The notes: generated from the letters alone by a model not told the origin. 64,000 bases of DNA from Naegleria gruberi (GCA_000004985.1 GG738898.1), one strand, 5' to 3'; numbered from the stretch's first letter, positions 3,846 through 64,000 are shown. Program-made: numbers and translations.

Positions 3846-6800
3846 TTAAATATTGCAATTGATGGAATGTTTTTCCAAGAGTGGAATTAAATCATTCTTA
3901 AACTTCTTCTCAAGATAGACACTCATTTGGAGATTTTGCTTACTGACATGTTTTCTACGTTGTGTGAGACCTTCTTTGAGTTGGTAGGCAAGTTGAGAGA
4001 GTCTGGTCTTGTATTTCTCAATTAAGAGTTGATTTTCCTCAGTGAGATTTTCGAGAGCCTCTGGTGATAGGTAGCGTTCCACATCCTTGTAGATTCCTCC
4101 GTGAATTCTTGGATCAATTAGGCCAGTCAGCTCAGAATCAAGAGAGGCTGTTAGTAAATTACTTTCATTCAATTTGTGGCTAACGACCAATTCCTGAACA
4201 GCATGAATTCTCAATTCTAAATAGTAAATGGCCACTTCAAGACTGTTCAATTTGAAGAGCTTCTTTTCACGAACTTCCTGAATGGTGTACATGTTAGGGA
4301 ATGGTTTCTTGATGGCAAAGAAGAAAATTGAGCCATCTTGATCATCCATTGATTGTTTTGGTTCATCCATATTGCCAGCACTTGCTGATTTTTCCTCTGT
4401 TTGTTCTCTCTTAACTTTGACTCTTTTGAAAACTTTGATATTGTGACTCTTGTGATATTGTTGAATCTTTGGTGAGATAGTTGGATCTAATAATTTGAAA
4501 CTATCCTCCCCAGTAGTTTCATCCATGAAAGAGTTAATTTCCTGTTGACTGGATGGCTCAACTGGGGCCAAAAAGATAACTTGCTGTTCACTGGTTCTGA
4601 ATTTAGTCTCATCGAAACTGGATGGAATTTCTCTCTTAATAGTAGCTCCCTTGAATTTGAGTTTGATAAAGTTGACAAAATCTGCAAGTTTTTGATGATG
4701 AGCATTAAAGATAAAGTTTGTGTTCGACATGGATTTACCATAAAATCCAACAAAGTAATACTTGTTGTACTCTCTGATGGAGGTGACAATCTTCTTGTAG
4801 AGCTTACTCTCCTCTGAGTGAACCACTGACAATTCGGCATAATTCATCTTGTTCTTGTAAATGACACGAAGCTCCTCATTGAGAGAGATGGCTCTTTCCC
4901 AATCCTTACCCTTCTCGAACAAGTCAATAACTTCCTTGTAGAGTTTAATCTTTCTTGTACACTCTGGCTCTTCTGGATAATTGTCAGAGAAGAGAGGCAA
5001 CTCAATGTTACTATTAAAGTTTAACATTTGTGCATGTTGGAAGATGGCAAGACCAGCTTCAATATAACGTTTTCTACTCTTCTGCATACTAGCCAACAAG
5101 TGCAAATACTTGAAATACAATTGAACATTGCTATTCTTCTTGAAGGATTTGAGAGCGTTCTTGAAGGACTTTTCTTGATTTTGGAAATTCATGGTATTTG
5201 GATCATTGGTGCTGGCAGCCTCGATATCTCTAATTTGTTTGAGCAAGTGATGAAGAGATTCCATTAAAACATCCATCTTGTTTGCAAATTCATCCTCTGC
5301 CTCAGGTCCCAACAATTCTACCATCAGTTCCTTGTAAGATTTGAGCTTGGATTCAACACATGAAATGAATGTTCTCCTAACTCCTTCAAGACCAGAAACT
5401 TCACTGAAAAATCTTTCAGTTGCAGCTTCACACAATGACAAGGAATTTCTAGAAATATGCTCCAATTTCAATAAATCAAAGAATAAATTCTTGGCCACTG
5501 ATGCAATTTCAGAGACATGAATCTTGAACAATTTGATTGTCTTTTCGATTAAATCAGGAAGGAGACTTTCTTGCAGTTGTAGTGGTGAAAAGCTCCAAAT
5601 ACAATCATAAAAGACCTGTAGAATTCCGTGACGAGTATCGTTTTGACTGAGGAAGAGTTTTCTGTCATAGGATGGCATCTTTTCTGGTTCAAAACTAAAG
5701 ATGGCATCAAACAAGTGCCTAACCAACAATTGAGAGAGTTTAACAATTCTATAAACATTAAACTCAGCAGGAGGTGAATTAGTTGACACGGATCGTTCTT
5801 GTGACAAGTTGTGAATGGTAGTGATGGAGCAACCTTCCATGGTTGTAATGTACTTTTTCAACTTTAGGAAAATCATTAGAATAATGTTTGCAATTGTGCC
5901 GTATTGGTAAATGTTGAGTTGTGTCCAATTCTTTGGGAGTGGGTTCTTCTTGGATAGCACAATAGAAATCAAATCCAAGAGAAGGTCCTTTGTATCGAGT
6001 TCGGCAAGTTGTGAATTTTCATTCAAATTTGCAAAGATAGTATCCAAAACTCCCTTGAATGTTAAAAGATCTAAAAAGTTAACAATGGTGAGAATAATAT
6101 CACAACTGATACGTTTGGCTTGGTTGATTTCTGGTTCAAATTTTTTGGCAATCAATGAATTATTTGTCCTGGCATCTCTAGTAGTGGAATCCAAAGTTTG
6201 AGTGGCTGTCTCTTGTTCAGTTCGCTCTCTGGAATATTCTGCCTCCAATTCTTCTGTTCTCTCCAGAGAAACATCAAAAGCCTCCTTCAACATGCTCAGT
6301 AAACCGAAAAAGTCAATCAAACTTGTGGCACATTCTTTCATCTTCTCTCTGTGCTCCTTGCTTAGAAGAGCAGTGTCAGTTTCCTCCTCACTAACAACAG
6401 TCATTCGTTCCGTTTGATGCTCGGAAGTTGTGGAGATGTTCAAATCACCCAGTCCAAAAGTACTCTTAAATGACTTGCCATCGTGTGACATACGAGTTTT
6501 GAAGAGATGAATAATCTTGTTCATGATCGATATTGATTTTGGTTCGAGGAAACATTCACTATAACCCTCAAGTGCCTCTAAAACTATTGGATAGAGAGTT
6601 TTAGATAGTGTTCCTTTTTGGAAAGGTTCTGAGGAAATGATATTATCAAAAAAGTGTAACTTTCGGTAAGATTCTTCTGCAGGTATGGCAGAGGAAAACT
6701 TTTCAATAATTCTTCCTAATCTATGTTCATTGAACAAATCTCGTACTGTTGTGAAAAAGTCTGGTGTCATTGTATCAAAGAGGGCATTCTTGACAGACTT

Positions 6801-16936: not shown

Positions 16937-19900
16937 TTATTCAAAAATCTCATCTTCAACAACTGCTTTTACATGGTGCTTATCTGACAACAGATACGTG
17001 TTGCATAACCCTTTTCCTTTAACTTCGACACTTCTTTCCTCAAATTCAAATCCAATATGCTTCACTCTTTCATAAGTTGATAGTGAAATTTGAATCCTTC
17101 CTGAAAGTGATGTCGATTCCATTCTAGATGCTGTATTAACAGCATCACCCCACAAGTCGTAGGCAAACTTTTTTGTTCCAATTACACCAGCTACAGATTC
17201 TCCAGTATTCAAACCAATTCTAATATTGATCTGATGCCCAAATTCTAGTCGATGTTCCTCATTGTAAGATCTCACCACCTGAAAAACGTCTATGGCAAAT
17301 TTGAGTGTTCTTTCTGGATGGTCATCCTTTTCTGAGAGCTTGATTCCACCCACACAAAAGTAGGCATCACCAATGGTCTTGATCTTTTCCAAATTGTGTT
17401 TGTCAATGAGGGCATCAAAGCCATTCACTACATTATTCAACATGCCAACCAATTGAGTTGGATTAAGAGTTGAGGACATTTTCGTGAAACCGACCATATC
17501 AGAGAAGAAACAAGTCATGTCATCAAACTTTTCTGCAATAAATGTATCTCCAGATTTCAATCTACTTGCGACACTCTCTGGTAAAATGGATCTTAACAAG
17601 TTTTCAGACTTTTTCTTTTCTTCAGCCAAGAGAGCGAGTTGTTTCTTGTCATTGGTCACGTCCTTAATGAAACAAGTAATAACAGGCTTGTTATCAAAGA
17701 GTGTGGAAAATAAATTGACCTTTGCTGGAAATTTAGTTTGATTCTTTCTCAAACAATCTAAATCTACAGTTTCACCTTGAGATTCCTTTGTGGTGAGAGT
17801 TGATTGAATTAATTCGGAGATTAATCGGCTCAGCTCGTCTCTATTGTTCCTGTCGAAGAGACTTGTGAGTGAAGTACCAAGGGTATCACTTTGTTTGCAA
17901 TTGAACATTTTCTGGGCTGCTGGATTGAAAATTTCAATTTCACATGCACTATTGCAAAGAACTGCTCCGTCAACAACAGAATTGAGAATATTTCTCACTT
18001 TGGATTCATCACCTGTTCCTTTAGAAATATTCTTCTTCTTTCCAAAAAGTGATCTACTTGGAAGTTTCTCATAGAGTACGTACTCTCTTAGCTCATCAGA
18101 TAATTCCAACTCTTCATATTGAACATAGTTTAAAAGCATTCTCATGTGTTCCGTATTTTTCGAATGTGATTTGAAAATACTTCTCAACATTAAAAAGATT
18201 GAAACAATGCAGATAGCACCAAGCACTCCAAAAACAATTACCATTGAGACAGAAGGAGTGGAACGAGTGATGGTGAATAATGCGAGGAATTCCAGCAAGA
18301 CTATACTAATGGTATGTGCCAACTCATCAATTTGGAAATGTTTCTCCAATAATTGAGAATCTGAGTAAATATTCTTCATCAAGTCTTCATTTAGCTTTAC
18401 ACAACTCACCACGAATTCATCTACAATAGATTCCAAGCTGGAGCAGTTTTCACAAGCTTTAGTGGTGATAATTTCATCAATTCTTGGTACTATTCCCAAA
18501 ATGGAAGGTGAGACTCCAATCTTTCCATAAATCATGTCATTATATGTAGATCTAAGATCTGTTACATTGAATCGGATATCGTCTTTGAATAAATTTAAGG
18601 CTGAGTCATTGAACAGAGTTTTTGAATTGAAAAGTGAGCTCGGTAAATTACTGAAAGTCAATTCACCCATCTTGAATCCAATATTCTGAGTCAAAACAAG
18701 GGTCTCTGTTGTTTGTTTGACACTCAGCATGGTAGAGTAACCCAATTCTGAATTCAATACCAACTCGGCAAACATCATAGATGCACATAATAAGGAAGCA
18801 AGAGCCATAACAATGAAAATTAAATATCGAAGCATATTTCTCTTCCTGTTGAAGGTGTTCAAAAATTGAGACGAGTTACTGTGTGTGTACTTTCCCAATT
18901 CGGTATAAATATTCGAGATGAGCTCCTTCTTGATGTTCTTCTCGTAAGTTTTCAGAGTTCTTCCAATCTGAGAAAAGAAAATCTTCATGTACAAAAGGAA
19001 AGAAACAGCACAGATAACATAGACTCCACCAATGCTCACGAAAAAGTACAAGTAATCATTTGTAAATGTGTTCGCATTTACCTTGCATCTTTCAATGAAA
19101 TCAAAGCAAATTTCTACAAAAGCATTTGTAAAACTATTGTAATTGAGATAGAGAATCATAAAGTTGTAAACATCAACTGTAGAATTGAAACCACTACTAG
19201 GATAGGACTCCACCAAGTGCATAAGAATGGAGGATATTTCTGAGAGTGAAACATTTTTTACAATGAAACTGTCATAATATCCACTGCTTCTTTTGTTTAC
19301 AGTTGGAAGATAGAGCTTTTTTGTTTCTCCATTGTAGTCGTCATACATTTCAGGTGTGAACTTTCCAATCTTTTTTCCTTGTGACATTAGTTTAACATGC
19401 TCAATGTGTTCAACGTAGAAATCAACCCTTTCCTTCAATAATTCAGTAATTTTCTCCACCGATTGATCACTCTGTTCCAATGATAATACCATTTCATGAT
19501 AAATTTGAGGAAGTGCCTTCTGGAGCGAAACTGAATTTTGAGACTGACTCATCTGCAACACTATTTGCTGATTTCTAATCTGTTTGAAAATTGCATAACT
19601 TGAAACTGTTGGCTCGCAAACTTGCTGAACGAATTTCACATCAGCTAACACTCCATCAGAGAATACCAAACTCAATACTGCCGCACAAATCAGGAAAGCT
19701 GCAGAAAGAAGGCAAAAACATAAGGCAAGACAAATATTGAACTCGTGTCCAATTGGTTGTGCAAGAGCCATCTTGAATTTTTGATCTCTCTTTAAACTTG
19801 GATCTTCCTCCACACCATTCAAAAGTACATTCTCTGATATATCATCCAAATCCACTTCTACAGATTTATCATTCGCCCTATTATTATACAAGCCCTCAAG

Positions 19901-22015
19901 AAAGGCGATACTCTCCCCTCCTACTGCAGAAGTTTTCATTGCTTCCACTCGTTTTGCCTTCTTTGATTTTCTTAACAAGTTTGCTGCTTCTTCCTCTTCA
20001 AGCTCGTGTGCTTCAGAGTAGAATTCATTTGCAGTTTCTGAATCGAACTTGACCTCTTCCAAATATCTTGCATAAATTCTCAAGAAGGACTTGTTCATCT
20101 TGAAAGCTGAGAGTCTGTTTGAAAATGCAGTGTCCAAATCATTCATGATGGCTGTGCATTGTGTATTGATGATTTCTAATGTTTCCACATTCACAATATC
20201 ATTCATCATTTCCTTGAAGAATTCTCTATGGAGTGCTTTGAATTCTTTCAGTTTGGAGTCTAAACGAGAGGCAAGTTGTTCTGCATCGGTATGGATAGCG
20301 ACAACTGGTTTGTTCTCCTTCTTGTTAATTTCCTTCATCAAATCATGACAAGCAATCTTGTCAGTGAGTGATGTACTTATTCTACTTAGTTTTGTCATTA
20401 GTGAGAGGGAATAATTTGTGGCTCTCTCCTCTGTCATGCAGTAATAGACCAATAATGTGGCAAAATATAAGGTTATTGGATTTGCCAAAACTCTACTACT
20501 ATGAGCCCCCTTAATGAGTGCCAGAGCCATGTCAGTATCTGTGAGTGAGCTATTTGGATCCTTTGGTTTTTCCTCATAATTTGTTGCTCTCTTACGAATA
20601 ATATCAACTGAGAAGCTAAAACGGAGAAAAATATTCAGTTGATTTGTTAGTTGTTTTTCTGAAATGTAAACTAGTATTGAGGTGGCTTTCTTTTCAATGA
20701 GACTTCGTATAGTCTCATTAGAAAGACTCTTTATAAGATTTGATTCTTTAGAAGAACTCAAATCCTCATATTGCCCACCTTGTGTGAGAATAATCTGTCC
20801 AATTCTTCTCTTGATAATTCTAATGTAAGCTTCCATAGCTATAATTCCTCCAACGAATCCAATGACAATCAACCCTAAGGTAAGACCCATCATTCCCAAT
20901 CCAAAATCCCATTTCACTGAAGTGTTAGTTAAAGAAGATATTAATGATCCAATGGCACCTCCAACTTTTGCTCCTGCAATTCCTGAATAAATCGAATTTT
21001 CCCAAGACTTTTGGAATGGAAGAGATAGAAACAAAGGAATAAACCATGAAATAGACATGACCAAATGCACAATTGCTCTCCCAAAAACTTTTTGAGAGGG
21101 TATAAAGAAAATAATGAACACTTGTGAAATATTCGTGATGGAGAAGAATGTTAAAGGCCAATCATAAACCGGTTTGAAAACAAGAGAGCTATCCCATGTA
21201 GGAGAAAAACTAAAACGTGTCGCCATTATACTAATGCACAAAGTGATGAAGGCAACAATTGAGAATGCATAAAGAGTTAAATTTGAATTTCCAAAACATC
21301 TCACACTAGAAAATCTCTGCAATGCATAATCTGAATTATCAATCTCCTCAAAGTATACTGTCTTTGAATAATCACATTCGATAAAACTTGTCAAAATAAA
21401 GGCAAATATCATTGATAACCCATTCATGAAAAAGCCAACAAATAGTAATAGATTCTTCAGTTTCTCCATGTGCTTACTAGCTTTAAAAACTCCCCAAGCG
21501 GAGAACATGACCACCAACATGGCTATAAAACAAATGGTAATGACCAAACTAGTGATAACAACCATAGCATCATAGGGTACTAAATCCAATGAGAGTGTAA
21601 TTGGATAATTGAGAGCACGAAAAACCCACTCTCCATACTCTCCAAAATTAAAAGATCCCAACGTTGAGACCCAAACACTAGTCCACAATATATACAAATT
21701 ATACGCAACAGATAATAAAAGCTGTTTCCATCCTCTCCTCTGTTTTCTATCTTTCATTGATGAGATGAATGTAAAGATTGCCTGTTGTCCATTCCTCATG
21801 ATTGACGAAGTGATTGATGAAGATCGTCCCGTCTGATGACTTGTCTCACTCTCCACTATACTACTTCCATCGAAAACTTCATTTTGAGGCCTCCTTATTC
21901 CCTCAAAGAGAACTGTTGAATTATCTATTGATGCTGCTTGTAGTTGATGATGAGAAACCCCACCCTGAATAAGTATACTCGTTCGCGGAGAAACAACAAC
22001 ACCAGAATGTTCCAT
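16937..22015 (-). CDS. Large multi-pass membrane nucleotidyl cyclase, intron-free, 1692 aa. It has two clusters of TM helices, a PAS-like domain and a C-terminal class III adenylyl/guanylyl cyclase catalytic domain.
   Basis: It has a genuine ATG at 22013-15. The PAS-like region reads ...VVDGAVLCNSACEIEIFNPAAQKMFNCKQSDTLGTSLTSLF.... The cyclase domain reads FTPEMYDDY..., DMVGFTKMSS, KIKTIGDAYFCVGGI, and GLNTGESVAGVIGTKKFAYDLWGDAVNTASRMEST, the class III CHD signature. Confidence 0.8.
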   Translation of the reverse strand: MEHSGVVVSPRTSILIQGGVSHHQLQAASIDNSTVLFEGIRRPQNEVFDGSSIVESETSHQTGRSSSITSSIMRNGQQAIFTFISSMKDRKQRRGWKQLLLSVAYNLYILWTSVWVSTLGSFNFGEYGEWVFRALNYPITLSLDLVPYDAMVVITSLVITICFIAMLVVMFSAWGVFKASKHMEKLKNLLLFVGFFMNGLSMIFAFILTSFIECDYSKTVYFEEIDNSDYALQRFSSVRCFGNSNLTLYAFSIVAFITLCISIMATRFSFSPTWDSSLVFKPVYDWPLTFFSITNISQVFIIFFIPSQKVFGRAIVHLVMSISWFIPLFLSLPFQKSWENSIYSGIAGAKVGGAIGSLISSLTNTSVKWDFGLGMMGLTLGLIVIGFVGGIIAMEAYIRIIKRRIGQIILTQGGQYEDLSSSKESNLIKSLSNETIRSLIEKKATSILVYISEKQLTNQLNIFLRFSFSVDIIRKRATNYEEKPKDPNSSLTDTDMALALIKGAHSSRVLANPITLYFATLLVYYCMTEERATNYSLSLMTKLSRISTSLTDKIACHDLMKEINKKENKPVVAIHTDAEQLASRLDSKLKEFKALHREFFKEMMNDIVNVETLEIINTQCTAIMNDLDTAFSNRLSAFKMNKSFLRIYARYLEEVKFDSETANEFYSEAHELEEEEAANLLRKSKKAKRVEAMKTSAVGGESIAFLEGLYNNRANDKSVEVDLDDISENVLLNGVEEDPSLKRDQKFKMALAQPIGHEFNICLALCFCLLSAAFLICAAVLSLVFSDGVLADVKFVQQVCEPTVSSYAIFKQIRNQQIVLQMSQSQNSVSLQKALPQIYHEMVLSLEQSDQSVEKITELLKERVDFYVEHIEHVKLMSQGKKIGKFTPEMYDDYNGETKKLYLPTVNKRSSGYYDSFIVKNVSLSEISSILMHLVESYPSSGFNSTVDVYNFMILYLNYNSFTNAFVEICFDFIERCKVNANTFTNDYLYFFVSIGGVYVICAVSFLLYMKIFFSQIGRTLKTYEKNIKKELISNIYTELGKYTHSNSSQFLNTFNRKRNMLRYLIFIVMALASLLCASMMFAELVLNSELGYSTMLSVKQTTETLVLTQNIGFKMGELTFSNLPSSLFNSKTLFNDSALNLFKDDIRFNVTDLRSTYNDMIYGKIGVSPSILGIVPRIDEIITTKACENCSSLESIVDEFVVSCVKLNEDLMKNIYSDSQLLEKHFQIDELAHTISIVLLEFLALFTITRSTPSVSMVIVFGVLGAICIVSIFLMLRSIFKSHSKNTEHMRMLLNYVQYEELELSDELREYVLYEKLPSRSLFGKKKNISKGTGDESKVRNILNSVVDGAVLCNSACEIEIFNPAAQKMFNCKQSDTLGTSLTSLFDRNNRDELSRLISELIQSTLTTKESQGETVDLDCLRKNQTKFPAKVNLFSTLFDNKPVITCFIKDVTNDKKQLALLAEEKKKSENLLRSILPESVASRLKSGDTFIAEKFDDMTCFFSDMVGFTKMSSTLNPTQLVGMLNNVVNGFDALIDKHNLEKIKTIGDAYFCVGGIKLSEKDDHPERTLKFAIDVFQVVRSYNEEHRLEFGHQINIRIGLNTGESVAGVIGTKKFAYDLWGDAVNTASRMESTSLSGRIQISLSTYERVKHIGFEFEERSVEVKGKGLCNTYLLSDKHHVKAVVEDEIFE

Positions 22016-46167: not shown

Positions 46168-47811
46168 ATGATAACCCTCCAATTCTTGCTCAATTTATGC
46201 AGTTATTTCATCACGGCAGGAATTGTAATTTTCCTATTGTGGTTTCTGTATGCCACCATCATATTGTACATTAATTATAAAAAGCTTGCACACATTCCTG
46301 GTCATTTCCAATATTTATTTGCTCCATTCCGAATTCCTCTTCTTGCTCCTCGTATTTATCTTGGCAATTTTGAAGGAATTGAAAAAGCCTTTGATGAATT
46401 TTCTGATGGAAATGGAGTTTTGAGAATGTCATTTGTGAGAGGCAATACTGTCATGATCAAAAACAAGCAAATGCTCAAGGAATTCTTTGTAACAAAACAA
46501 TCAAGTTTTGAAAAACCAGAATTCATCTATAGCATGTTTGAAATGTTTGGGCAGAATGTGTTGAGTGCACCAGATGTTTCGGATTGGAAGAGACATCATA
46601 AAGTGGCACATCCAGCATTTTCCATTGATAATTTGCAGTACATGTGTGAGGAGGCTGTGGAATGCACTGATTTGTTGGTGGATCGTTGGATCAATAGCCA
46701 TTCTGGTAAGAGTTTCGAATTGAAAGATGATGAAATTGGTGAAGCCATGTCTACCGTAACTGTTGAGGTTTTAGGTCGTGCTGGATTGAAAGTTTCATTT
46801 GGAATGTTTGATAGAGAGGATTCACATGCTGAGGAGTTCAAGAATGCAGTTAATTTGCTAGTTTCTAAGGGTCTTTTAGTACAGAGATTCTTTGGAAAGA
46901 ATCCATTTCTCTACAAGTGGTCACAGAGATTATTAGGAGTGGATAAAGCTGTTTCCATTGTGAATAGAGTTTTGAATAATAGTATTGTGGATAGAAAGAA
47001 GGAATTGGAAAGTGATTTTGGTAATTTCTCAAAGAAGGACATTCTGAGCTTGTTGGTCAAGGCAAATGCTGAGGAAAAGACCTTGACAGATATGGAGCTA
47101 AAGAGCAATTCATTGATTTTCTTACTTGCTGGAGAGGAGGTTTGTTATTTTAAATTGTGTGATTAATTTTTTCAATTAATAATTAATTCAGACAACATCC
47201 TCATCGTTGCAATGGGTTTTATACGAGTTGGCTAAACACCCTGAGTATCAGAAAAGAGCTAGAGAAGAAATCAATTCAGTACTTCCTAACAAGGCAAAGC
47301 CAAATTATGAAACTGTACAAGCATTGCCATTCACAACAGGTGTTATTTTGGAAGCTCTTCGTCTTCATCCTCCTGTCTTTTCAGTTGCCAAACAAACAGT
47401 GAAGAATGTCAAGTTGGGAGATTATGAAATTCCAAAGAATACCCTTGTCACTGTGTTCATTTATGGAGTGAATAGAAGTAAGGAATATTGGAAAGATCCT
47501 GAAGAGTATCAACCAGATAGATTTATGGATATGGAGCTAAGAAACAAATCTCAACATGATTTTACATTTCTTTCATTTTCTATGGGTCAAAGAAAGTGTA
47601 TTGTAAGTATAGAGTTGTTGGCTAATGTGGCTAATATGAAAATAAGGGATTTCAATTTGCTCAACTGGAAGCTTGTATGATTTTGGTGCGCTTGTTGCAA
47701 AACTTTGAATTCACTCTTCTGAACGACGAATCCAAAGAGAAAGTCAGGGCTATGAAAAACGTTACAATCAGACCAGCAAATCTAAAATTGTTGATCAAGC
47801 CAACAAAATAA
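46168..47811 (+). CDS. Cytochrome P450 monooxygenase, about 515 aa. It has three exons at about 46168..47139, 47192..47602 and 47647..47811.
   Basis: It has an N-terminal membrane anchor, AGIVIFLLWFLYATIILY. The I-helix FLLAGEE|TTSSSLQWVLYELAKHPEYQ is split by a 52-nt GTTTGT...AATTCAG intron. The PERF-like motif is EALRLHPP. The heme-binding loop FSMGQRKCI|GFQFAQLEACMILVRLLQNFEF is split by a 44-nt GTAAGT...AAG intron. The frames check out. Confidence 0.8.
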
Positions 47812-56229: not shown

Positions 56230-58008
56230 TTAAATTTTTATTATTGACAATTTTTCAAGTAATTTAAACAAGTTAGAATGTTCACACAACTTTTGACCAT
56301 TTTCTTTGAATATTCTTTCAATGTTTTTAGCAATAGCACTATTATTCATAAAATTACCACAATTGTTAGAACGAAGAATATCTTCTTCCTCAATTAGACC
56401 ATCATTACTTGTGTAAAAGTGAATAAACAATAAAGCATAAATATTATTCTTATCCATATCAAGGGCATGAAGTGCAAGTAGGAATGATTCGTGACTTCTA
56501 TCAGAGTCCAAGCTGTACAACAACAAGGACTGAATAAGAGTCATACAAGAGTTTAAGGAAAGATTGATACTAGTCTCCCAATCCTTAAATATCATAATGT
56601 AACTGTCCTCTGAATTTCCAAAAAAGTTTTTAGCATGCATATCACTAGATGTCTCTTGTGTATCCTTACTAATTATTGATACAGGTTCCTTATTAGAAGA
56701 AATTGAGGTAATATTCTCAAATATCCTGGCACAATCTAGTAATTCTTCAGAGAAAGCATCCAAATGATTGAAACCATCTTTAGAATAAAACATGTGCTCT
56801 ACAAAATAGAAAGCAAATATAAAGTAATCAGTTCCTGCAATATCAACACCTAATCTTAGACAGGAAACAAATCCTGTTTCGAGTATTGTATGCAAAATTT
56901 TCTCTCGTACACTATTTACATCGGTATTATTTGACATTTCAATATTGATAATTTTAGCAAAACTAGATTCATCCTCTTCAGTCTTTGATAACTTTGGGAG
57001 TTTAAAATTTTTCAACAATTCAATATCATACTGAAAGGAAGCATCGTCCTTATTAATAAGGTTGATAAAATTCTTAAATACCAACTTCATCATGAGTTTT
57101 GTGATTTTCACCAGACTCAATCTCTCTAATTGAACAACCCTATCAGTAGCACTATCACCATGGTCAATATCTAGGGTTGGATCCAATAATCTATCGTACA
57201 AGAATAAGTAAACTCCATATGCAGATAAGAACAATTCCCTCTTAGTTTCTCTCATTTGTCCAAAGAGAGGAGCAACTTGAACTATGGCTTCAAAGGCTTC
57301 TTCCATTTGTGAAATGCTATATGAGATTTGTTCAATATCGTTTTGGAGATTATCAGCTGCTGCTACTGATGATAATACACTCACTGATGATGCTGATGCG
57401 GAGGGAGTATTTACACTAGTTGTTCCTACAGTTGTTGTTAATTGAATGGAAGTACTACTAAAGCTATCTTCATTTCCTCTCTTTGATTTTACTCGTTTCC
57501 TTCTCTTAGAAGACTTGTGTCGATTAGTTCCTCCATTACCAATCAATACCTTGGCTTGTTCTGTTGTTATATTTGGAGGCAGTGCCAAGGAGAGAGGAGT
57601 TCTAGGAGAGGTAGCATCTTGCATAAAACTACTAATAAAGTCAGTTTCATTCAGAGAGCGTGATTTGTTATCTAGGTTGTGTACAAGTTGTTGAAGAGGA
57701 TTGCTTCTCTTATTACTACTAATACTGCTGTTTGAAAGTTTAGAAGAGCTATTATTATTGAAGGAGTGAGCCTGTTGAGAATTGATGGAAAATACATCAG
57801 GTGAAATACTACCCGAGTAGACATCGACTTCATCATCATAATCTTCATCATTACTATTGATAGCACCATCATCATCACTTGTACTACTTGCATAATTATA
57901 AAAGTCATAACCATTATCATAATAATTATTCGGATTGTTAAGAGGCTTCATAGTTCCTTCCCGGAAGCCTTCATCAGTCTTCCCACTTTGAATAAAACTA
58001 GTACTCAT
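56230..58008 (-). CDS. Hypothetical 592-aa protein with an S/N-rich N-terminal half and a structured C-terminal half of unknown family. It may continue across the 55904-56134 N-gap into the ORF at 55740..56180.
   Basis: It is a long intact minus-strand ORF. The basic stretch is NRHKSSKRRKRVKSKRGNED. No confident domain match could be made from sequence alone. Confidence 0.45.
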   Translation of the reverse strand: MSTSFIQSGKTDEGFREGTMKPLNNPNNYYDNGYDFYNYASSTSDDDGAINSNDEDYDDEVDVYSGSISPDVFSINSQQAHSFNNNSSSKLSNSSISSNKRSNPLQQLVHNLDNKSRSLNETDFISSFMQDATSPRTPLSLALPPNITTEQAKVLIGNGGTNRHKSSKRRKRVKSKRGNEDSFSSTSIQLTTTVGTTSVNTPSASASSVSVLSSVAAADNLQNDIEQISYSISQMEEAFEAIVQVAPLFGQMRETKRELFLSAYGVYLFLYDRLLDPTLDIDHGDSATDRVVQLERLSLVKITKLMMKLVFKNFINLINKDDASFQYDIELLKNFKLPKLSKTEEDESSFAKIINIEMSNNTDVNSVREKILHTILETGFVSCLRLGVDIAGTDYFIFAFYFVEHMFYSKDGFNHLDAFSEELLDCARIFENITSISSNKEPVSIISKDTQETSSDMHAKNFFGNSEDSYIMIFKDWETSINLSLNSCMTLIQSLLLYSLDSDRSHESFLLALHALDMDKNNIYALLFIHFYTSNDGLIEEEDILRSNNCGNFMNNSAIAKNIERIFKENGQKLCEHSNLFKLLEKLSIIKI

Positions 58009-59737
58009 GTTATTGTTGTTGTGGTTTTATGGGTAACAATCTATGTGCTGCTGTGGACGACTACTTTGTAGAAGGTTGAATGTGTGTTACCAGAGTTGTG
58101 TTCTTCGTCAGTAGATTTTGGAATGAGCGGGAAATTGTTGTTTTTTTTTGAAATAAAAGTAATAACCGTTGTTCGTCTGATAACTTTGTTTTAAAAACGA
58201 CCAACTACTGCCCATCAAATAAATACTGTTGGATAATGATGATACTCAGTACGATAATAAACAGGAGCTGTGTGAGGAATGAACCTGGGCGATGAATAAT
58301 TAAAGTGGTTGTTTTTTATTTTGATGTGGAGACAAGTGAACCAAGAGAGACACCAACCTCTAACAAATTGGATTTTCGCTCCAGCCTTTGCCGGCCAGGA
58401 AAATTGTACAAGGTTGGAACAAAACAGCCCAAAGAGGAACCAAGCAACCCAACCAGTGAGAAGTAATCTCTCTGCTGTATTATGGAATTTACTATCCAAT
58501 AATAAAAAGATAATTGTATCAACTGGGTTGATAGTATTGATGGTAATGTATTACAGTTTTACAATGGTTAGATAATGATAGGGTTTTTATGAGGAAGCTG
58601 ATGTTGGAAATTTTAGAAACTTGAAGAGAACTTGGTTGGAATATCGGGATGTTGATGAGCTTTTCAACAATTTGTTTGAATGAGGCTTTTCCAAGTTGAT
58701 TGATCTACAGTGATTCGTTACAATGTGATTTTCATTTCCTCATGATTCTTTGTAATTGGTTCTTAATGGTTCAACAAGAGTGTTTATTGTCATGTTTATT
58801 AATGTCTCAGATTTTAAATATTTTCTCGTTCAAAAAATATTCAACAAATGGTACTGTGGACATGAGGATTTTCGGAGTGGTTTTACATCATGAAACCACC
58901 AAACTTTCACATCATTATCTCAACATGATCTTTTGTAATTTTTATTGGTGGATTATCATCATGAAATTGGAATTTATTTTTCATGATGGAAAATCACAAT
59001 TTGGTGTTCCATCATCGGATCATTCACCAACCATCATTATTGTTTTCCATCAATATAATAATAGTATTTATGGAAATTAATTTTTAGTAATGTAATTTTG
59101 GTGAAATGTCCAAAATTTTCACTAAATTCATCACTGCTGGATCTACTGGACAAGTTGGAAAACTGGCAATTTTGAAAAAGTATGGACCATAACTCAACAT
59201 GTACTTCACCAACTTGAATCATATCTTTTAGTACTATTTAAATAGATAATAAACATCATATTTAATATCAGATTTTCGTCATGTTGTCAATTTACCAAGT
59301 TCCGATATTTGATGCTACCAGAGTGGATTCATAGCTCAATTACAAATCAAACAACAATTCATAATGCTTATTATGTTATTAAATTTATAATTTAGAGTCT
59401 TGTAGCATAATTTGTGAAAATAATGGTGATATTTTCATGTTTTTATTGTTTTTCTCATGATGTAGACATTGTCTCTCACTGAAACATCACGAATAGCATG
59501 TCATTTATCCATTCTCTACCAGATTATTATCTTTTACTGTAATTTTCACTATTGGATATTTTACTTTTAATATTTGTGATACTTTACTATTATATTCAAT
59601 ANATAAGGGATAAGAAATATTCATTAGAAGAAGATAGATTCCTAGTAATATTCTCTCAATTTATATTTCTAACTAGTAATTCTAACCAGAGGTGTAGGTT
59701 TGGTTCTGAACTCATTTAATGTTTTGAAATTTTTACG

Positions 59738-61646
59738 NNNNNNNNNNNNNNNNNNNNNNNNNNNNNNNNNNNNNNNNNNNNNNNNNNNNNNNNNNNNNNN
59801 NNNNNNNNNNNNNNNNNNNNNNNNNNNNNNNNNNNNNNNNNNNNNNNNNNNNNNNNNNNNNNNNNNNNNNNNNNNNNNNNNNNNNNNNNNNNNNNNNNNN
59901 NNNNNNNNNNNNNNNNNNNNNNNNNNNNNNNNNNNNNNNNNNNNNNNNNNNNNNNNNNNNNNNNNNNNNNNNNNNNNNNNNNNNNNNNNNNNNNNNNNNN
60001 NNNNNNNNNNNNNNNNNNNNNNNNNNNNNNNNNNNNNNNNNNNNNNNNNNNNNNNNNNNNNNNNNNNNNNNNNNNNNNNNNNNNNNNNNNNNNNNNNNNN
60101 NNNNNNNNNNNNNNNNNNNNNNNNNNNNNNNNNNNNNNNNNNNNNNNNNNNNNNNNNNNNNNNNNNNNNNNNNNNNNNNNNNNNNNNNNNNNNNNNNNNN
60201 NNNNNNNNNNNNNNNNNNNNNNNNNNNNNNNNNNNNNNNNNNNNNNNNNNNNNNNNNNNNNNNNNNNNNNNNNNNNNNNNNNNNNNNNNNNNNNNNNNNN
60301 NNNNNNNNNNNNNNNNNNNNNNNNNNNNNNNNNNNNNNNNNNNNNNNNNNNNNNNNNNNNNNNNNNNNNNNNNNNNNNNNNNNNNNNNNNNNNNNNNNNN
60401 NNNNNNNNNNNNNNNNNNNNNNNNNNNNNNNNNNNNNNNNNNNNNNNNNNNNNNNNNNNNNNNNNNNNNNNNNNNNNNNNNNNNNNNNNNNNNNNNNNNN
60501 NNNNNNNNNNNNNNNNNNNNNNNNNNNNNNNNNNNNNNNNNNNNNNNNNNNNNNNNNNNNNNNNNNNNNNNNNNNNNNNNNNNNNNNNNNNNNNNNNNNN
60601 NNNNNNNNNNNNNNNNNNNNNNNNNNNNNNNNNNNNNNNNNNNNNNNNNNNNNNNNNNNNNNNNNNNNNNNNNNNNNNNNNNNNNNNNNNNNNNNNNNNN
60701 NNNNNNNNNNNNNNNNNNNNNNNNNNNNNNNNNNNNNNNNNNNNNNNNNNNNNNNNNNNNNNNNNNNNNNNNNNNNNNNNNNNNNNNNNNNNNNNNNNNN
60801 NNNNNNNNNNNNNNNNNNNNNNNNNNNNNNNNNNNNNNNNNNNNNNNNNNNNNNNNNNNNNNNNNNNNNNNNNNNNNNNNNNNNNNNNNNNNNNNNNNNN
60901 NNNNNNNNNNNNNNNNNNNNNNNNNNNNNNNNNNNNNNNNNNNNNNNNNNNNNNNNNNNNNNNNNNNNNNNNNNNNNNNNNNNNNNNNNNNNNNNNNNNN
61001 NNNNNNNNNNNNNNNNNNNNNNNNNNNNNNNNNNNNNNNNNNNNNNNNNNNNNNNNNNNNNNNNNNNNNNNNNNNNNNNNNNNNNNNNNNNNNNNNNNNN
61101 NNNNNNNNNNNNNNNNNNNNNNNNNNNNNNNNNNNNNNNNNNNNNNNNNNNNNNNNNNNNNNNNNNNNNNNNNNNNNNNNNNNNNNNNNNNNNNNNNNNN
61201 NNNNNNNNNNNNNNNNNNNNNNNNNNNNNNNNNNNNNNNNNNNNNNNNNNNNNNNNNNNNNNNNNNNNNNNNNNNNNNNNNNNNNNNNNNNNNNNNNNNN
61301 NNNNNNNNNNNNNNNNNNNNNNNNNNNNNNNNNNNNNNNNNNNNNNNNNNNNNNNNNNNNNNNNNNNNNNNNNNNNNNNNNNNNNNNNNNNNNNNNNNNN
61401 NNNNNNNNNNNNNNNNNNNNNNNNNNNNNNNNNNNNNNNNNNNNNNNNNNNNNNNNNNNNNNNNNNNNNNNNNNNNNNNNNNNNNNNNNNNNNNNNNNNN
61501 NNNNNNNNNNNNNNNNNNNNNNNNNNNNNNNNNNNNNNNNNNNNNNNNNNNNNNNNNNNNNNNNNNNNNNNNNNNNNNNNNNNNNNNNNNNNNNNNNNNN
61601 NNNNNNNNNNNNNNNNNNNNNNNNNNNNNNNNNNNNNNNNNNNNNN
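59738..61646. other. Assembly gap of 1909 N. Other N-runs are at 8439-8478, 15226-15275, 31370-31442, 55904-56134 and 63116-63165.
   Basis: These are runs of n characters in the sequence. The gap sits inside or at the 5' edge of the retroelement. Confidence 0.95.
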
Positions 61647-61879
61647 ATCACCTCCAAACAACAAGAGAAGGCGATTAAATCTGCTGAAAAAGTAAAAGCA
61701 GCAGAAACTATTGAAAAAGTCAACAAATGGGCCAGCAGAACCCCTAATTTTCGTAAGTTCCCCACTAGATACGATAATAGACAAGCTGGCTACAACTACA
61801 ACAACAACAACAACCACAACAACAACTTCAACCAAGGACAAGGTAATAGTTACCAATCAAACAATCTGAAGATTCAACA

Positions 61880-63417
61880 ATGCTCACCAAGCAAGTGGAA
61901 CCTCTTCAAATTCCTCCAACTCAAACAACAACAATAAATGATGCCAACATTCCTCTTGGTGGTCGCCTCTCTCGTTTTCACAGCCGATGGCAAGAATTCG
62001 GTGTTTCCAACATGATTCACGATTGGATTCAAAACGGAATTCCAATAGATTCCGATTCAAATCGTTGGAAAAATTACCATCAGAGGAAATTCTCTACTAC
62101 AGAGAAACAATGGATCCAAAAAGAGATTGGTTCCATGTTGAAAGAAGGAGTAATTGTTCACTCCCCAAACATCGTTATCAACCCTATAAACGTAGTTCCA
62201 AAGAAAGGGTCAGACCAATTCAGATTCATTTTGGATCTAAGAAAGGTCAACGATGGAATAGATCCAGATTCCTTCAAAATGGAATCAGTGCAGAAAATCA
62301 TGAAATTCCTATGCAAAGGAATGTGGGCATGCAAAATAGACCTAAAGAAAGGTTATTTTCACGTTCCCATCAAGGAGGAACATCAACACCTCCTAGGGTT
62401 CATATTCGAAGAAGAATTCTACCAATTTACATGTCTTCCATTCGGTCTAAGCACAGCTCCCCGAAGCTTTACGAAAATAATGAAAGAAATCGTAAAGAAA
62501 TGGCGGCTGAAAGGAATCATGGTCTTTATTTACATAGACGACATCCTTTTAGTGGGAAATTCGTTCGATTTGGTACTAGAAAATCTCCGAACGTTAATAA
62601 CAGACTTAAAATTCCTTGGATGGCTTCTTCAAGAAGAGAAATCAGTTCTGATTCCAACTCAAACTATTCAGTTTCTAGGCCTCCTCTTCGATTTAGAAAA
62701 TGGGAAAGTTCTAATTCCAGAAGACAAGAAAGTAATAGCTATGGATATCATGGACAAACTAATCTTAGCAGAATCTCAAAGATCTCTGTTAAACTTAAGA
62801 TTCGTCGCCAAATTCATAGGAAAAATGGAGTTCCTAGCATTAGCAGAACCAGCAATCATGCCATTCCTAGACAGATTAAGAAAGCAAATGTGCAATCGGG
62901 TAGAAATGAAAGGATGGAATGGCACAATGATGATAAATCGTGGTCCTATGAAAGATTTATGTTTCCTCAAAGAAATCTGGCAAGATTCTGGAACGTGGTT
63001 AGAACTGGAATCTCCCAAAGCAGTAATAATCAATTCAGACGCAACTCTCTCAGGATTCGCCATCCATTCATCAAATCTTGTCATTGTGGGTCAATTCCAA
63101 GAAGAATCCTCTATANNNNNNNNNNNNNNNNNNNNNNNNNNNNNNNNNNNNNNNNNNNNNNNNNNGGAGACAATCAACCATCCTTAGTTTATGTAAGAAA
63201 GGGCTATGGTTCAATAGAACACCTCTCATCAATAGCAAGAGACTTGTGGACCATTCTCAAGTTGAAAGATTGGCACATTTCCAAAACAGTGTACATTCCA
63301 TCAGAAGTAAACAACATTGCCGACAGACTAAGCAGACTGGGAGATTGGAAATCTTCTCAAGAATTGATAAATTTGGTAGAAGAAGAATTCGGTTCGCAAG
63401 GTCAGAGTCAGCAGTGA
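61880..63417 (+). CDS. Retroelement pol covering the reverse transcriptase and RNase H domains. The frame is broken by the 63116-63165 N-gap.
   Basis: See the motifs above. Before the gap the reading frame is that of ORF 61880..63187. After the gap it is that of ORF 61987..63417, which ends ...DRLSRLGDWKSSQELINLVEEEFGSQGQSQQ*. Confidence 0.7.
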
Positions 63418-64000
63418 CAATCACTTACAACAGCTGGTTGGAAAACGACGCATTCTCTCAACTTTGGGAGAAAGATTCAATCAACTATTGTGTCCCACCT
63501 CTGGGATTAATCTCTCAAGCCCTAGTTCATTTGATCAAATCGAACGCAAAGGGAACTTTTGTAGTGCCGGATTGGCCAACTTCTCATTGGCACCCAATTC
63601 GAAACCTTCAGTCCAACTCTATTATCAATGAGAAATTTTGGCCTGTCAATCTCCCTTGCTGATTCCACAATTAAGAAATATTCTAAACTTTATGGTGCTT
63701 TTCAATGGTTCCTGGTAATTCAGAATATTCCAAAGACAAACCCATATGCACTCGAATGTTTTGCTGCATACCTTTCTATTAATAAGAAAAGTTATGATAT
63801 TAATACATTGAAACCAGCCATTCAATTCTTTGCAGACGTGGAGGATTGGCAACTTTGTAGCTAGTAGTTTTTCAAGAGTTAAGAAAGGTCTTACTAAAGC
63901 CTACTATATTGTGGATCGTTCTAAACTCAAACGTAATGGTTTCTCTTCCTATGATATTAAATCATATATTGATTCGATTTCATCAAGCAAGACCTGGTAT
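63380..64000 (+). CDS. Retroelement MT-like domain (about 63380..63662) followed by a tyrosine-recombinase N-terminal region (63628 to the window end, partial).
   Basis: The ORF at 63078..63662 carries ...FVVPDWPTSHW.... The ORF at 63628..63864 and the sequence beyond carry the SAM-like core-binding-type block. The coordinates are approximate. Confidence 0.5.

What the first reader, a model, noticed from the sequence alone, without database searches (positions are those of the whole stretch)
59600..64000. DIRS-like tyrosine-recombinase retrotransposon with RT-RH-MT-like-YR order, flanked by large assembly gaps
The element lacks integrase. It carries the DIRS/PAT-specific domain downstream of RNase H (…WEKDSINYCVPPLGLISQALVHLIKSNAKGTFVVPDWPTSHW…, with a degenerate N6-MTase-like xPPx motif). 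It then begins a SAM-like tyrosine-recombinase N-terminus. DIRS-type elements are comparatively rare and lineage-restricted. Their terminal repeat structure, inverted or split direct, is lost here in the 1.9-kb N-gap. The gap suggests the element is multi-copy and collapsed in assembly. The gag end is N/Q-rich like the host proteins, consistent with long residence.
Basis: partly seen in the sequence, partly recalled or inferred. Interest (0 to 1): 0.5.

Follow-up and report, generated by a model that had tools for sequence, protein, structure and literature searches.

The report
Broken DIRS-type retrotransposon copy in Naegleria
This is a damaged, partly unassembled copy of a tyrosine-recombinase (DIRS-type) retrotransposon in the Naegleria gruberi genome; this kind of mobile element was already reported from this genome, so the finding is correct but ordinary.

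Summary
Window 61647-64000 (+) carries, in order, a gag tail, RT (YIDD), RNase H, the DIRS/PAT-type inactive methyltransferase-like domain (quoted peptide at 63465-63590) and the N-terminal domain of a Cre-like tyrosine recombinase (YR). No integrase is present. The window is Naegleria gruberi NEG-M: a host ORF is 100% identical to XP_002672417.1.

Intact relatives in public assemblies (up to 85% nt identity) have three ORFs: gag, RT-RH-MT and a 285-306 aa YR. The YR carries the full R-K-HxxR-W/H-Y set and a predicted Cre fold.

The window copy is defective. Against two intact relatives it has frame-breaking deletions of 19, about 106 and 2 nt, and probably a fourth frameshift in the gag tail. 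Its 5' end lies in the 1909-N gap. Its YR catalytic half lies beyond, or is missing at, the window end.

The termini cannot be seen, so DIRS1-like (ITR/ICR) versus PAT-like (split direct repeats) stays open. Relatives show head-to-tail direct junctions, which points towards PAT-like.

DIRS1-like sequences in N. gruberi were already reported (Piednoel 2011: 7 sequences, 6 families), so this is already known and of low interest.

The parts
59738..61646 (.). 1909-N assembly gap. It presumably hides the element's 5' terminus and about the first 210 or more codons of gag.
   Evidence: Gap list. The gag of relative L001 aligns to the window only from its residue 213 onward, starting at the first base after the gap.
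61647..61941 (+). C-terminal tail of gag, N/Q-rich. It reads in frame 0 to a stop at 61935-61937. The likely native end (RFNNAHQ...NNNNK*) is in frame 1 at 61870-61941, which implies a frameshift near 61860-61870.
   Evidence: tblastn with L001 gag residues 213-251: 64% identity, E 2e-8. Pol is +1 relative to gag in four intact relatives but +2 in the window. The frame-1 tail resembles the L001 gag end KFNNQQGPNRDSNNNNTNK*. The fourth lesion is tentative because the region is low-complexity.
61880..63115 (+). Pol ORF, first part. It holds the reverse transcriptase (YIDD at 62531-62542) and the start of RNase H (NSDAT at 63032-63046). It is open throughout.
   Evidence: Pfam RVT_1 E 2.8e-22, residues 106-268. 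70% identity to L001 pol residues 42-442. Motif coordinates.
63116..63165 (.). 50-N placeholder gap inside RNase H. Relatives have 90 nt here (30 codons, including the catalytic Glu), so the apparent frame change across the gap is an artefact of the gap size.
   Evidence: L009 has 90 nt (1121-1210) between the aligned flanks. L001 pol residues 443-472 are unmatched.
63166..63393 (+). RNase H C-terminal part (GDNQ at 63166-63177, ADRLSR at 63319-63336). It ends at a 19-nt frame-breaking deletion between 63393 and 63394 that removes the HHTVDR codons at the start of the MT-like domain.
   Evidence: 75% identity to L001 pol residues 473-547. A 19-nt gap is seen against both L001 and L009.
63394..63600 (+). 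DIRS/PAT-type methyltransferase-like (Dam/PCIF1-like, probably inactive) domain, including the quoted peptide at 63465-63590 and the VPPL motif.
   Evidence: 82% identity to L001 pol residues 545-623. That region of L001, L002 and L003 hits Pfam Dam PF05869 at E 5e-5 to 8e-4. 37 of 60 pol homologues hit PF05869, best E 4e-9. It fits the superfamily consensus VDLFAS..SW..DAF..W..Y..PP..LI..P.WP..W.P.
63601..63613 (+). Site of a net 106-nt deletion that removes the last ~36 codons of pol. The deletion breaks the frame.
   Evidence: The window has 13 nt where L009 has 119 nt, and 18 nt where L001 has 124 nt.
63628..63855 (+). Start of the tyrosine-recombinase ORF. The ATG sits in the conserved TATCAATGAGAA pol-stop/YR-start overlap. 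This part encodes the N-terminal helical (Cre/XerD-type core-binding) domain. A 2-nt deletion at about 63854-63856 breaks the frame.
   Evidence: 83% identity to L001 YR residues 1-76. The ATGA context is identical to L001 and L009. A 2-nt gap is seen against both relatives.
63857..63984 (+). Continuation of the YR N-terminal domain in another frame (to about residue 118 of 302). The catalytic domain is not reached.
   Evidence: Aligned to L009 at 85% nt identity up to 63984. 27 consecutive residues are identical to the N. gruberi partial protein P0250.
63985..64000 (+). The last 16 nt of the window do not align with any relative. This is either the 3' truncation point of this copy or a local indel, and cannot be decided.
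   Evidence: Direct comparison with L009 and L001.

Best explanation
Window 61647-64000 is an inactive, incompletely assembled copy of a DIRS-order retrotransposon in Naegleria gruberi NEG-M. That order uses a tyrosine recombinase for integration. The copy belongs to the MT-domain-bearing DIRS1/PAT clade and to a lineage so far seen only in Naegleria-type genomes.

How intact members work, by established knowledge of DIRS elements: they are about 4.1 kb and encode gag, an RT-RNase H-MT polyprotein and a Cre-like tyrosine recombinase. A transcript is reverse-transcribed. Terminal redundancy lets the cDNA close into a double-stranded circle. The recombinase then inserts the circle into the chromosome by site-specific recombination, without target-site duplication. 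The MT-like domain is probably a non-catalytic RNA- or protein-binding module.

Shown here: the domain content and order, homology to intact elements, the recombinase catalytic residues and fold in relatives, and the lesions in this copy.

Inferred: the replication route and the kind of termini.

This particular copy cannot move by itself. It has at least three frame-breaking deletions, and its YR catalytic half is not demonstrable.
For: - RT identified by Pfam.
- The whole-element search finds 7 close relatives (44-69% identity) plus N. fowleri and N. lovaniensis proteins. All other hits are at or below about 30% over comparable coverage.
- Contigs L001, L002, L003, L006 and L009 carry gag / RT-RH-MT / YR with no other ORF.
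- In relatives, Pfam finds RVT_1, weak Dam and Phage_integrase. Dam is hit in 37 of 60 pol homologues.
- The YR alignment has invariant R142, K172, H249 and R252 plus W/H and Y.
- The AlphaFold model of P0244 (pLDDT 79) matches Cre recombinase over about 310-330 columns, E 2e-8, TM 0.60-0.67.
- The window copy is collinear with L001 and L009 at 71-85% nt identity, with the same 19-, 106- and 2-nt deletions against both.
- Host identity is established.
- Literature: DIRS1-like sequences were reported in N. gruberi (PMC3266345) and DIRS repeats in N. lovaniensis (PMC6125883).
Against: - Neither terminus nor the YR catalytic domain is in the window, so the defining recombinase chemistry and the repeat architecture rest on relatives.
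- The closest intact relatives are anonymous metagenome or SRA contigs whose organism is not known.
- The 2-nt deletion and the gag frameshift could be sequencing errors in a draft Sanger assembly near gaps. The 19- and 106-nt deletions are unlikely to be errors.
- No reference-based phylogeny with named DIRS1, PAT or Ngaro elements could be run.
Confidence: 0.9

Rival explanations
1. Sub-question of class: the element is structurally PAT-like. It would be bounded by split direct repeats (A1 ... B1-A2-B2) rather than by the ITR plus ICR of true DIRS1-like elements.
For: - Relative L003 is about 98% identical in YR to N. gruberi P0242. It has a 246-nt direct repeat at 61-306 and 4079-4324 (97% identity). 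The repeat includes the 5' leader and the gag start, begins 32 nt after the YR stop, and has the ATG mutated to ATA in the second copy. Positions 1-60 are unrelated to 4019-4078.
- L006, L007 and L008, from three sequencing runs, are circular permutations of one 4097-nt unit with only 138 nt between the YR stop and the gag ATG. That is too short for ITRs plus ICRs.
- No terminal inverted repeats are found in any relative.
- Several contigs end 29-90 nt after the YR stop, as expected at a branch point.
- The YR ORF does not overlap pol by more than 4 nt.
Against: - B2 was never seen. Tandem insertion, circular DNA or assembler behaviour would give the same junction.
- The evidence comes from other families (46-50% aa identity to the window copy), not from the window.
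- Piednoel 2011 assigned the N. gruberi sequences to DIRS1-like by tBLASTx E-value margins.
- L003 and L002 carry a roughly 100-nt imperfect palindrome in the spacer, which is reminiscent of joined ITRs.
Confidence: 0.45
2. Sub-question of class: the element is a true DIRS1-like element with ITRs and internal complementary regions, as the 2011 survey filed the N. gruberi sequences.
For: - The published similarity-based assignment (PMC3266345).
- An MT domain is present.
- The palindromic spacer between YR and gag in L003 and L002 (DNA-fold z -6.2 and -5.0) could be a short rITR|lITR junction of a circular form.
Against: - No ITRs were detected in any relative or in the N. fowleri and N. lovaniensis genomic copies.
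- L003 shows a direct, not inverted, repeat.
- The spacer in the L006 family is 138 nt and not palindromic (z -1.0).
- There is no long pol/YR ORF overlap.
Confidence: 0.3
3. It is a fragment of a Ty3/gypsy-type LTR retrotransposon whose integrase lies outside the window. The 'YR' would be an unrelated neighbouring ORF.
For: DIRS RT/RH is related to Ty3/gypsy. Some distant hits of the pol search are gypsy elements carrying rve or RT_RNaseH domains, for example P0052 and P0120.
Against: - In five independent relatives the YR ORF follows pol directly. The ATGA overlap TATCAATGAGAA is identical in the window.
- Complete 4.1-kb units contain no integrase, protease or LTR.
- An MT-like domain, not an integrase, follows RNase H.
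Confidence: 0.02
4. It is a Ngaro- or VIPER-type YR retrotransposon.
For: Both have gag, RT-RH and YR, and Ngaro has split direct repeats.
Against: Ngaro and VIPER lack the MT domain (PMC3266345). Here the MT-like domain is present between RH and YR.
Confidence: 0.02
5. The copy is intact and potentially active or domesticated, and the frame breaks are only sequencing or assembly errors.
For: - There are no in-frame nonsense substitutions within the aligned ORF segments.
- The locus is in low-quality sequence next to gaps (an 'n' at 59602, a 50-N gap).
- Intact close relatives exist.
Against: - Deletions of 19 nt and 106 nt relative to two independent relatives remove conserved codons (VDRFA, the pol C-terminus). 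They are too large for base-calling errors.
- The last 16 nt diverge.
Confidence: 0.04

Closest known systems
DIRS1-like sequences of Naegleria gruberi reported by Piednoel et al. 2011 (BMC Genomics 12:621; 7 sequences, 6 families)
   Same: The genome assembly is the same (NEG-M, Fritz-Laylin 2010). The detection domains are the same (RT, MT, YR). The description as copies with many frameshifts and indels is the same. This copy is almost certainly one of the seven.
   Different: That paper gives no coordinates, structure or termini for them and could not place them in its tree. Here the copy is mapped, its lesions are listed, and intact relatives are identified.
DIRS-1 of Dictyostelium discoideum and DIRS1-like elements (ITR + ICR)
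   Same: Both have gag, RT-RH-MT pol, a tyrosine recombinase and no integrase or protease. The MT motif pattern VDLFAS...DAF...xPPx...PxWPxxxW is shared.
   Different: The YR ORF follows pol with only a 4-nt overlap, instead of a long overlap. Relatives show no ITR/ICR but direct head-to-tail junctions. The unit is only about 4.1 kb. Pol identity to non-Naegleria DIRS-type proteins is at or below about 30%.
PAT-like elements (PAT, kangaroo, TOC) with split direct repeats
   Same: They carry MT-bearing pol plus YR. The direct-repeat architecture is compatible with what relatives L003 and L006-L008 show.
   Different: A complete A1...B1-A2-B2 structure was not demonstrated, and no phylogenetic placement was made. 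The published similarity test favoured DIRS1-like for N. gruberi.
Cre recombinase of phage P1 (structural neighbour of the YR)
   Same: The predicted two-domain fold is shared (TM 0.60-0.67 over about 310-330 columns), as are the catalytic R, K, HxxR, W and Y.
   Different: Sequence identity is 13-16%. The eukaryotic protein is retroelement-encoded, and its recombination site is unknown.
PCIF1/Dam-type N6-adenine methyltransferase domain
   Same: Relatives give sub-threshold but consistent Pfam Dam hits and some PCIF1_WW-family hits.
   Different: The catalytic (D/N)PP(Y/F/W) motif reads VPPL here. The DIRS1 MT domains are considered inactive (PMC4738411).

Membership tests
DIRS order (tyrosine-recombinase retrotransposons) | Reverse transcriptase plus RNase H of the Ty3/gypsy-related type | tested here: met
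   RVT_1 E 2.8e-22 and the YIDD motif. RNase H shows D..(E in gap)..D..D motifs. Relatives give weak RVT_3 and RT_RNaseH hits.
DIRS order (tyrosine-recombinase retrotransposons) | A tyrosine recombinase with catalytic R-K-HxxR-(H/W)-Y encoded by the element | tested here: inconclusive
   The window holds only the N-terminal ~118 residues, broken by a 2-nt deletion, and the catalytic half lies beyond 64000. The feature is met in the family: L001, L002, L003, L006, L009 and N. gruberi P0250 have all residues, PF00589 hits and a Cre-like model.
DIRS order (tyrosine-recombinase retrotransposons) | No DDE integrase, no aspartic protease, no LTRs | tested here: met
   None is found in the visible 2.35 kb. 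None is found in complete 4.1-kb relatives either. The 5' 1.9 kb of the window copy is unsequenced.
DIRS order (tyrosine-recombinase retrotransposons) | Insertion without target-site duplication | not testable with these tools
   Both ends of the copy are missing: one lies in the gap and the other beyond the window end.
DIRS1-like superfamily | MT-like domain downstream of RNase H | tested here: met
   63394-63600 is 82% identical to the L001 MT region. Relatives hit Dam PF05869, and 37 of 60 homologues do so.
DIRS1-like superfamily | Inverted terminal repeats plus internal complementary regions (ICR) near the 3' end | tested here: inconclusive
   This is not testable in the window. No ITRs are found in relatives or in the N. 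fowleri and N. lovaniensis copies. Direct junctions are found instead. A palindromic spacer in L003 and L002 leaves some room for this feature.
PAT-like superfamily | Split direct repeats A1 ... B1-A2-B2 together with an MT-bearing pol | tested here: inconclusive
   An A1/A2 pair is seen in L003 (246 nt, 97%). A circularly permuted unit is seen in L006-L008. B2 was never observed, and nothing can be tested in the window itself.
Ngaro / VIPER | Absence of the MT domain | tested here: not met
   An MT-like domain is present between RH and YR. The criterion comes from PMC3266345.
Ty3/gypsy LTR retrotransposons | DDE integrase (rve) after RNase H, and flanking LTRs | tested here: not met
   RNase H is followed by MT-like and YR sequence. 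Relatives have no rve and no LTR.
Cryptons (YR DNA transposons) | A YR without an associated RT | tested here: not met
   The YR ORF is coupled to the RT-RH-MT ORF by an ATGA overlap in the window and in three relatives.

The most novel reading that the evidence does not exclude
The Naegleria-type MT-bearing YR retroelements may form a separate, still-active lineage that fits neither textbook architecture. The features pointing this way are:
- a compact ~4.1-kb unit;
- a non-overlapping YR ORF;
- a direct head-to-tail (circle-type) junction only about 130-140 nt long between YR and gag;
- a 22-nt cis motif (TCTCGKRAC-N4-5-CCATTWGT) at the YR stop, conserved across seven families;
- in some families, a ~100-nt palindrome spanning the junction that could be the recombinase's substrate.

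If this is so, the 2011 filing of the N. gruberi copies as DIRS1-like would need revision. These small elements would also be a convenient system for finding the long-unknown recombination site of eukaryotic YR retrotransposons.
Probability: 0.3. Interest if true: 0.4.

Novelty: already known. Interest (0 to 1): 0.2.

Why it matters
On its own it matters little. It is one dead copy of a transposon type already catalogued in this genome.

Its modest value is in annotation. It explains the gaps and the broken ORFs at this end of the window, and it should be masked rather than called as genes.

It is also a pointer. Intact relatives found here show that the Naegleria lineage of DIRS-type elements is alive in nature and unusually compact. 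Its termini have never been described. The direct junction, the conserved motif and the palindrome seen in relatives could help define the recombination site of eukaryotic YR retrotransposons.

Tried and rejected
- **Host ORF look-ups.** Exact look-ups of three host ORFs found nothing. The host was identified instead through a 90%-cluster member.
- **N. gruberi YR proteins.** Look-ups of P0242 and P0247 to fetch full-length genomic copies with termini failed. Their loci are not on record.
- **N. fowleri (L004) and N. lovaniensis (L005) genomic copies.** They were fetched in the hope of seeing termini. Both are degenerate: the YR is truncated or absent, and no terminal direct or inverted repeats appear even with gapped self-BLAST.
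- **JGI metagenome scan with the YR profile.** It gave only two short contigs, which again end just after the YR stop.
- **Region left of the gap (58001-59737).** It has no similarity to any relative or to the rest of the window, so the left end could not be placed. No second copy or solo repeat is in the window.
- **Reference-based DIRS1/PAT/Ngaro phylogeny.** This was not possible. No named reference sequences were obtainable, and the supplements of PMC3266345 hold no sequences.
- **Direct Pfam scan of the window's MT, RH and YR fragments.** It gave nothing significant. Their identity rests on homology to intact relatives.
- **Rejected alternatives.** Gypsy fragment, Ngaro/VIPER, Crypton and intact gene were considered and rejected (see rivals).

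Full report
**What is in the window.** Positions 59738-61646 are 1909 N and 63116-63165 are 50 N. Between and after these gaps, all on the + strand, lie the following pieces.
- An N/Q-rich ORF tail at 61647-61937.
- A 412-codon open frame at 61880-63115.
- An open frame at 63166-63396.
- An open frame holding the quoted peptide (63465-63590).
- An ATG-initiated frame at 63628-63861.
- A further frame running to the window end.

Pfam recognises only the RT (RVT_1, E 2.8e-22). The YIDD box is at 62531-62542 and the RNase H Asp motifs are at 63032-63046, 63166-63177 and 63319-63336. The short MT, RH and YR fragments give no Pfam hit on their own.

**Host.** The window ORF 2128-3696 (-) is 100% identical over 501 residues to XP_002672417.1, an ACAD11-type protein of Naegleria gruberi strain NEG-M. 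Other window genes fit that genome, for example a 1692-aa PAS-adenylate cyclase.

**Relatives.**
- A conceptual RT-RH-MT-YR translation finds seven close unnamed proteins (44-69% identity, E down to 6e-260). It also finds N. fowleri (46%) and N. lovaniensis proteins. Everything else, from animals and other eukaryotes, is at about 25-30% over comparable coverage.
- The contigs behind the close hits show one architecture: gag, then an RT-RH-MT ORF of 635-668 aa, then a 285-306-aa ORF.
- Pfam on these proteins gives RVT_1, weak RVT_3, Dam PF05869 always at the same place (E 5e-5 to 8e-4) and Phage_integrase PF00589, which is above the curated cut-off in L001 and L002.
- Of 60 pol homologues, 37 hit Dam (best E 4e-9) and 5 hit the PCIF1 family. 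The alignment consensus shows the classical DIRS MT pattern VDLFAS...SW...DAF...W...Y.PP..LI...P.WP..W.P, and the window peptide fits it.
- The xPPx motif is V/A/C-PP-L/I in the Naegleria clade and FPPF, NPPW or NPPF elsewhere. This agrees with the published view that DIRS1 MT domains derive from PCIF1 and are catalytically dead (PMC4738411).

**The recombinase.**
- The downstream ORFs align with invariant R142, K172, H249 and R252, a W/H and the C-terminal Tyr.
- A profile search finds three N. gruberi proteins. P0250 is a 209-aa partial protein from a 1.7-kb contig. Its first 27 residues equal the window's last YR residues, and it carries ARPGDL, HKTD, GHSARIG, W and Y. It is therefore a second copy of the same family in the same genome.
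- An AlphaFold model of P0244, the closest intact YR, has mean pLDDT 79.4 and pTM 0.63. It matches Cre recombinase over both domains (E 2e-8, TM 0.60-0.67, about 310-330 columns), followed by XerA, lambda Int and XerH.

**State of the window copy.**
- tblastn with the proteins of L001, L002 and L003 finds a single copy in the window.
- DNA alignment to L001 (71-78% identity) and L009 (77-85%) shows the same lesions against both.
  - A 19-nt deletion lies between 63393 and 63394. It removes the HHTVDR codons.
  - A net 106-nt deletion at 63601-63613 removes the pol C-terminus.
  - A 2-nt deletion lies at about 63854-63856 in the YR.
- The 50-N gap replaces about 90 nt, so the frame change across it is an artefact.
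- In four intact relatives pol is in the +1 frame relative to gag. In the window it is +2, and a frame-1 tail RFNNAHQ...NNNNK* resembles the L001 gag end. This suggests a fourth frameshift near 61860-61870, which is tentative because the region is low-complexity.
- The last 16 nt (63985-64000) do not align.
- The copy is a pseudogene. Its 5' end and most of gag are in the gap, since L001 gag aligns only from residue 213.

**Termini.**
- Nothing can be learned from the window. The 1.7 kb left of the gap matches no relative.
- In relative L003, whose YR is about 98% identical to N. gruberi P0242, a 246-nt direct repeat (61-306 and 4079-4324, 7 mismatches) begins 32 nt after the YR stop. It contains the leader and the gag start, with ATG changed to ATA in the second copy. 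Positions 1-60 are unrelated to 4019-4078.
- L006, L007 and L008, from three runs, are circular permutations of one 4097-nt unit. L006 has a 30-nt end overlap, and only 138 nt separate the YR stop from the gag ATG.
- No terminal inverted repeats were found anywhere, including in the degenerate N. fowleri and N. lovaniensis genomic copies.
- This pattern fits split direct repeats, tandem copies or circles better than ITR plus ICR. However, B2 was never seen, and the evidence comes from sister families.
- Piednoel et al. filed the N. gruberi sequences as DIRS1-like on tBLASTx margins only. The copies were too corrupted for their tree (PMC3266345).
- I therefore file the element in the MT-bearing DIRS1/PAT clade and leave the superfamily open, leaning PAT-like.

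**Mechanism.** By the established model for YR retrotransposons (summarised in PMC3266345), intact members are transcribed and reverse-transcribed. The cDNA is circularised with the help of the terminal or internal redundancy, and the recombinase inserts the circle without target-site duplication. This route is inferred, not shown here. The window copy cannot perform these steps.

**Novelty.** DIRS1-like sequences in this very genome (7 sequences, 6 families, at most 2 per family) and DIRS repeats in N. lovaniensis (89 copies, 0.32% of the genome) are published. The finding is correct but already known. 'Multi-copy, collapsed in assembly' is weak given at most 2 copies per family, and only one large gap flanks the copy.

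Noticed in passing
L006:1-4127, L007:1-4079, L008:1-3821: Three contigs from three sequencing runs (ERR2815209, ERR2815274, ERR2815266) are 100%-identical circular permutations of one 4097-nt gag-pol-YR unit. L006 starts and ends with the same 30 nt. This implies a circle, a tandem array or a split-direct-repeat junction in an apparently intact element.
   Followed up: partly
L003:61-306 and L003:4079-4324: A 246-nt direct repeat (97% identity, 7 mismatches) covers the 5' leader and the first 148 nt of gag. It recurs 32 nt after the YR stop. The gag ATG is ATA in the second copy. Positions 1-60 look like flank.
   Followed up: partly
L001:3722-3743, L002:3961-3982, L003:4026-4047, L006:3851-3871, L009:2707-2728, L011:1716-1734, variant in L010: A 22-nt motif, TCTCGKRAC-N4-5-CCATTWGT, is conserved at or just after the YR stop in seven element families. 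It is coding in some families and non-coding in others, so it is probably a cis-acting site. It is absent from the window, which ends before this point. A conserved AACA|TG follows 50-75 nt downstream, at the L003 junction and at the end of contig L009.
   Followed up: partly
L003:4042-4143 and L002:3995-4110: The spacer between the YR stop and the gag start folds as a long imperfect palindrome (single-strand DNA fold z -6.2 and -5.0, 0 of 200 shuffles as stable). It spans the putative head-to-tail junction. The L006 family lacks it (z -1.0). It is a possible recombination site or a short ITR pair.
   Followed up: partly
L005:11603-11729 and L005:12673-12787: The N. lovaniensis copy has lost its YR. 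It carries an inverted duplicate (84-95% identity) of the 3' end of pol about 1 kb downstream, which suggests a rearranged or tail-to-tail remnant.
   Followed up: no
window 58010-59737: A 1.7-kb AT-rich stretch (about 27% GC) without long ORFs lies between the upstream gene and the gap, which looks long next to the closely spaced ORFs in the rest of the window. It holds short CATCATGA-type direct and inverted repeats (for example 58877-58895 / 58979-58997) and an 'n' at 59602. It has no similarity to the element's relatives.
   Followed up: partly
window 61647-61941: The asparagine-rich C-terminus of gag is a family trait. It is also seen in L001, L002 and N. lovaniensis, so it is not a sign of amelioration in this copy alone. 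The gag-to-pol frame relation is +2 in the window but +1 in all intact relatives.
   Followed up: yes
window 1143-3699 (-), 16937-22015 (-), 46168-47166 (+): Host genes recognised while identifying the organism: an ACAD11-type APH + acyl-CoA dehydrogenase gene split by a short intron, a 1692-aa PAS-domain adenylate/guanylate cyclase, and a cytochrome P450 fragment.
   Followed up: no
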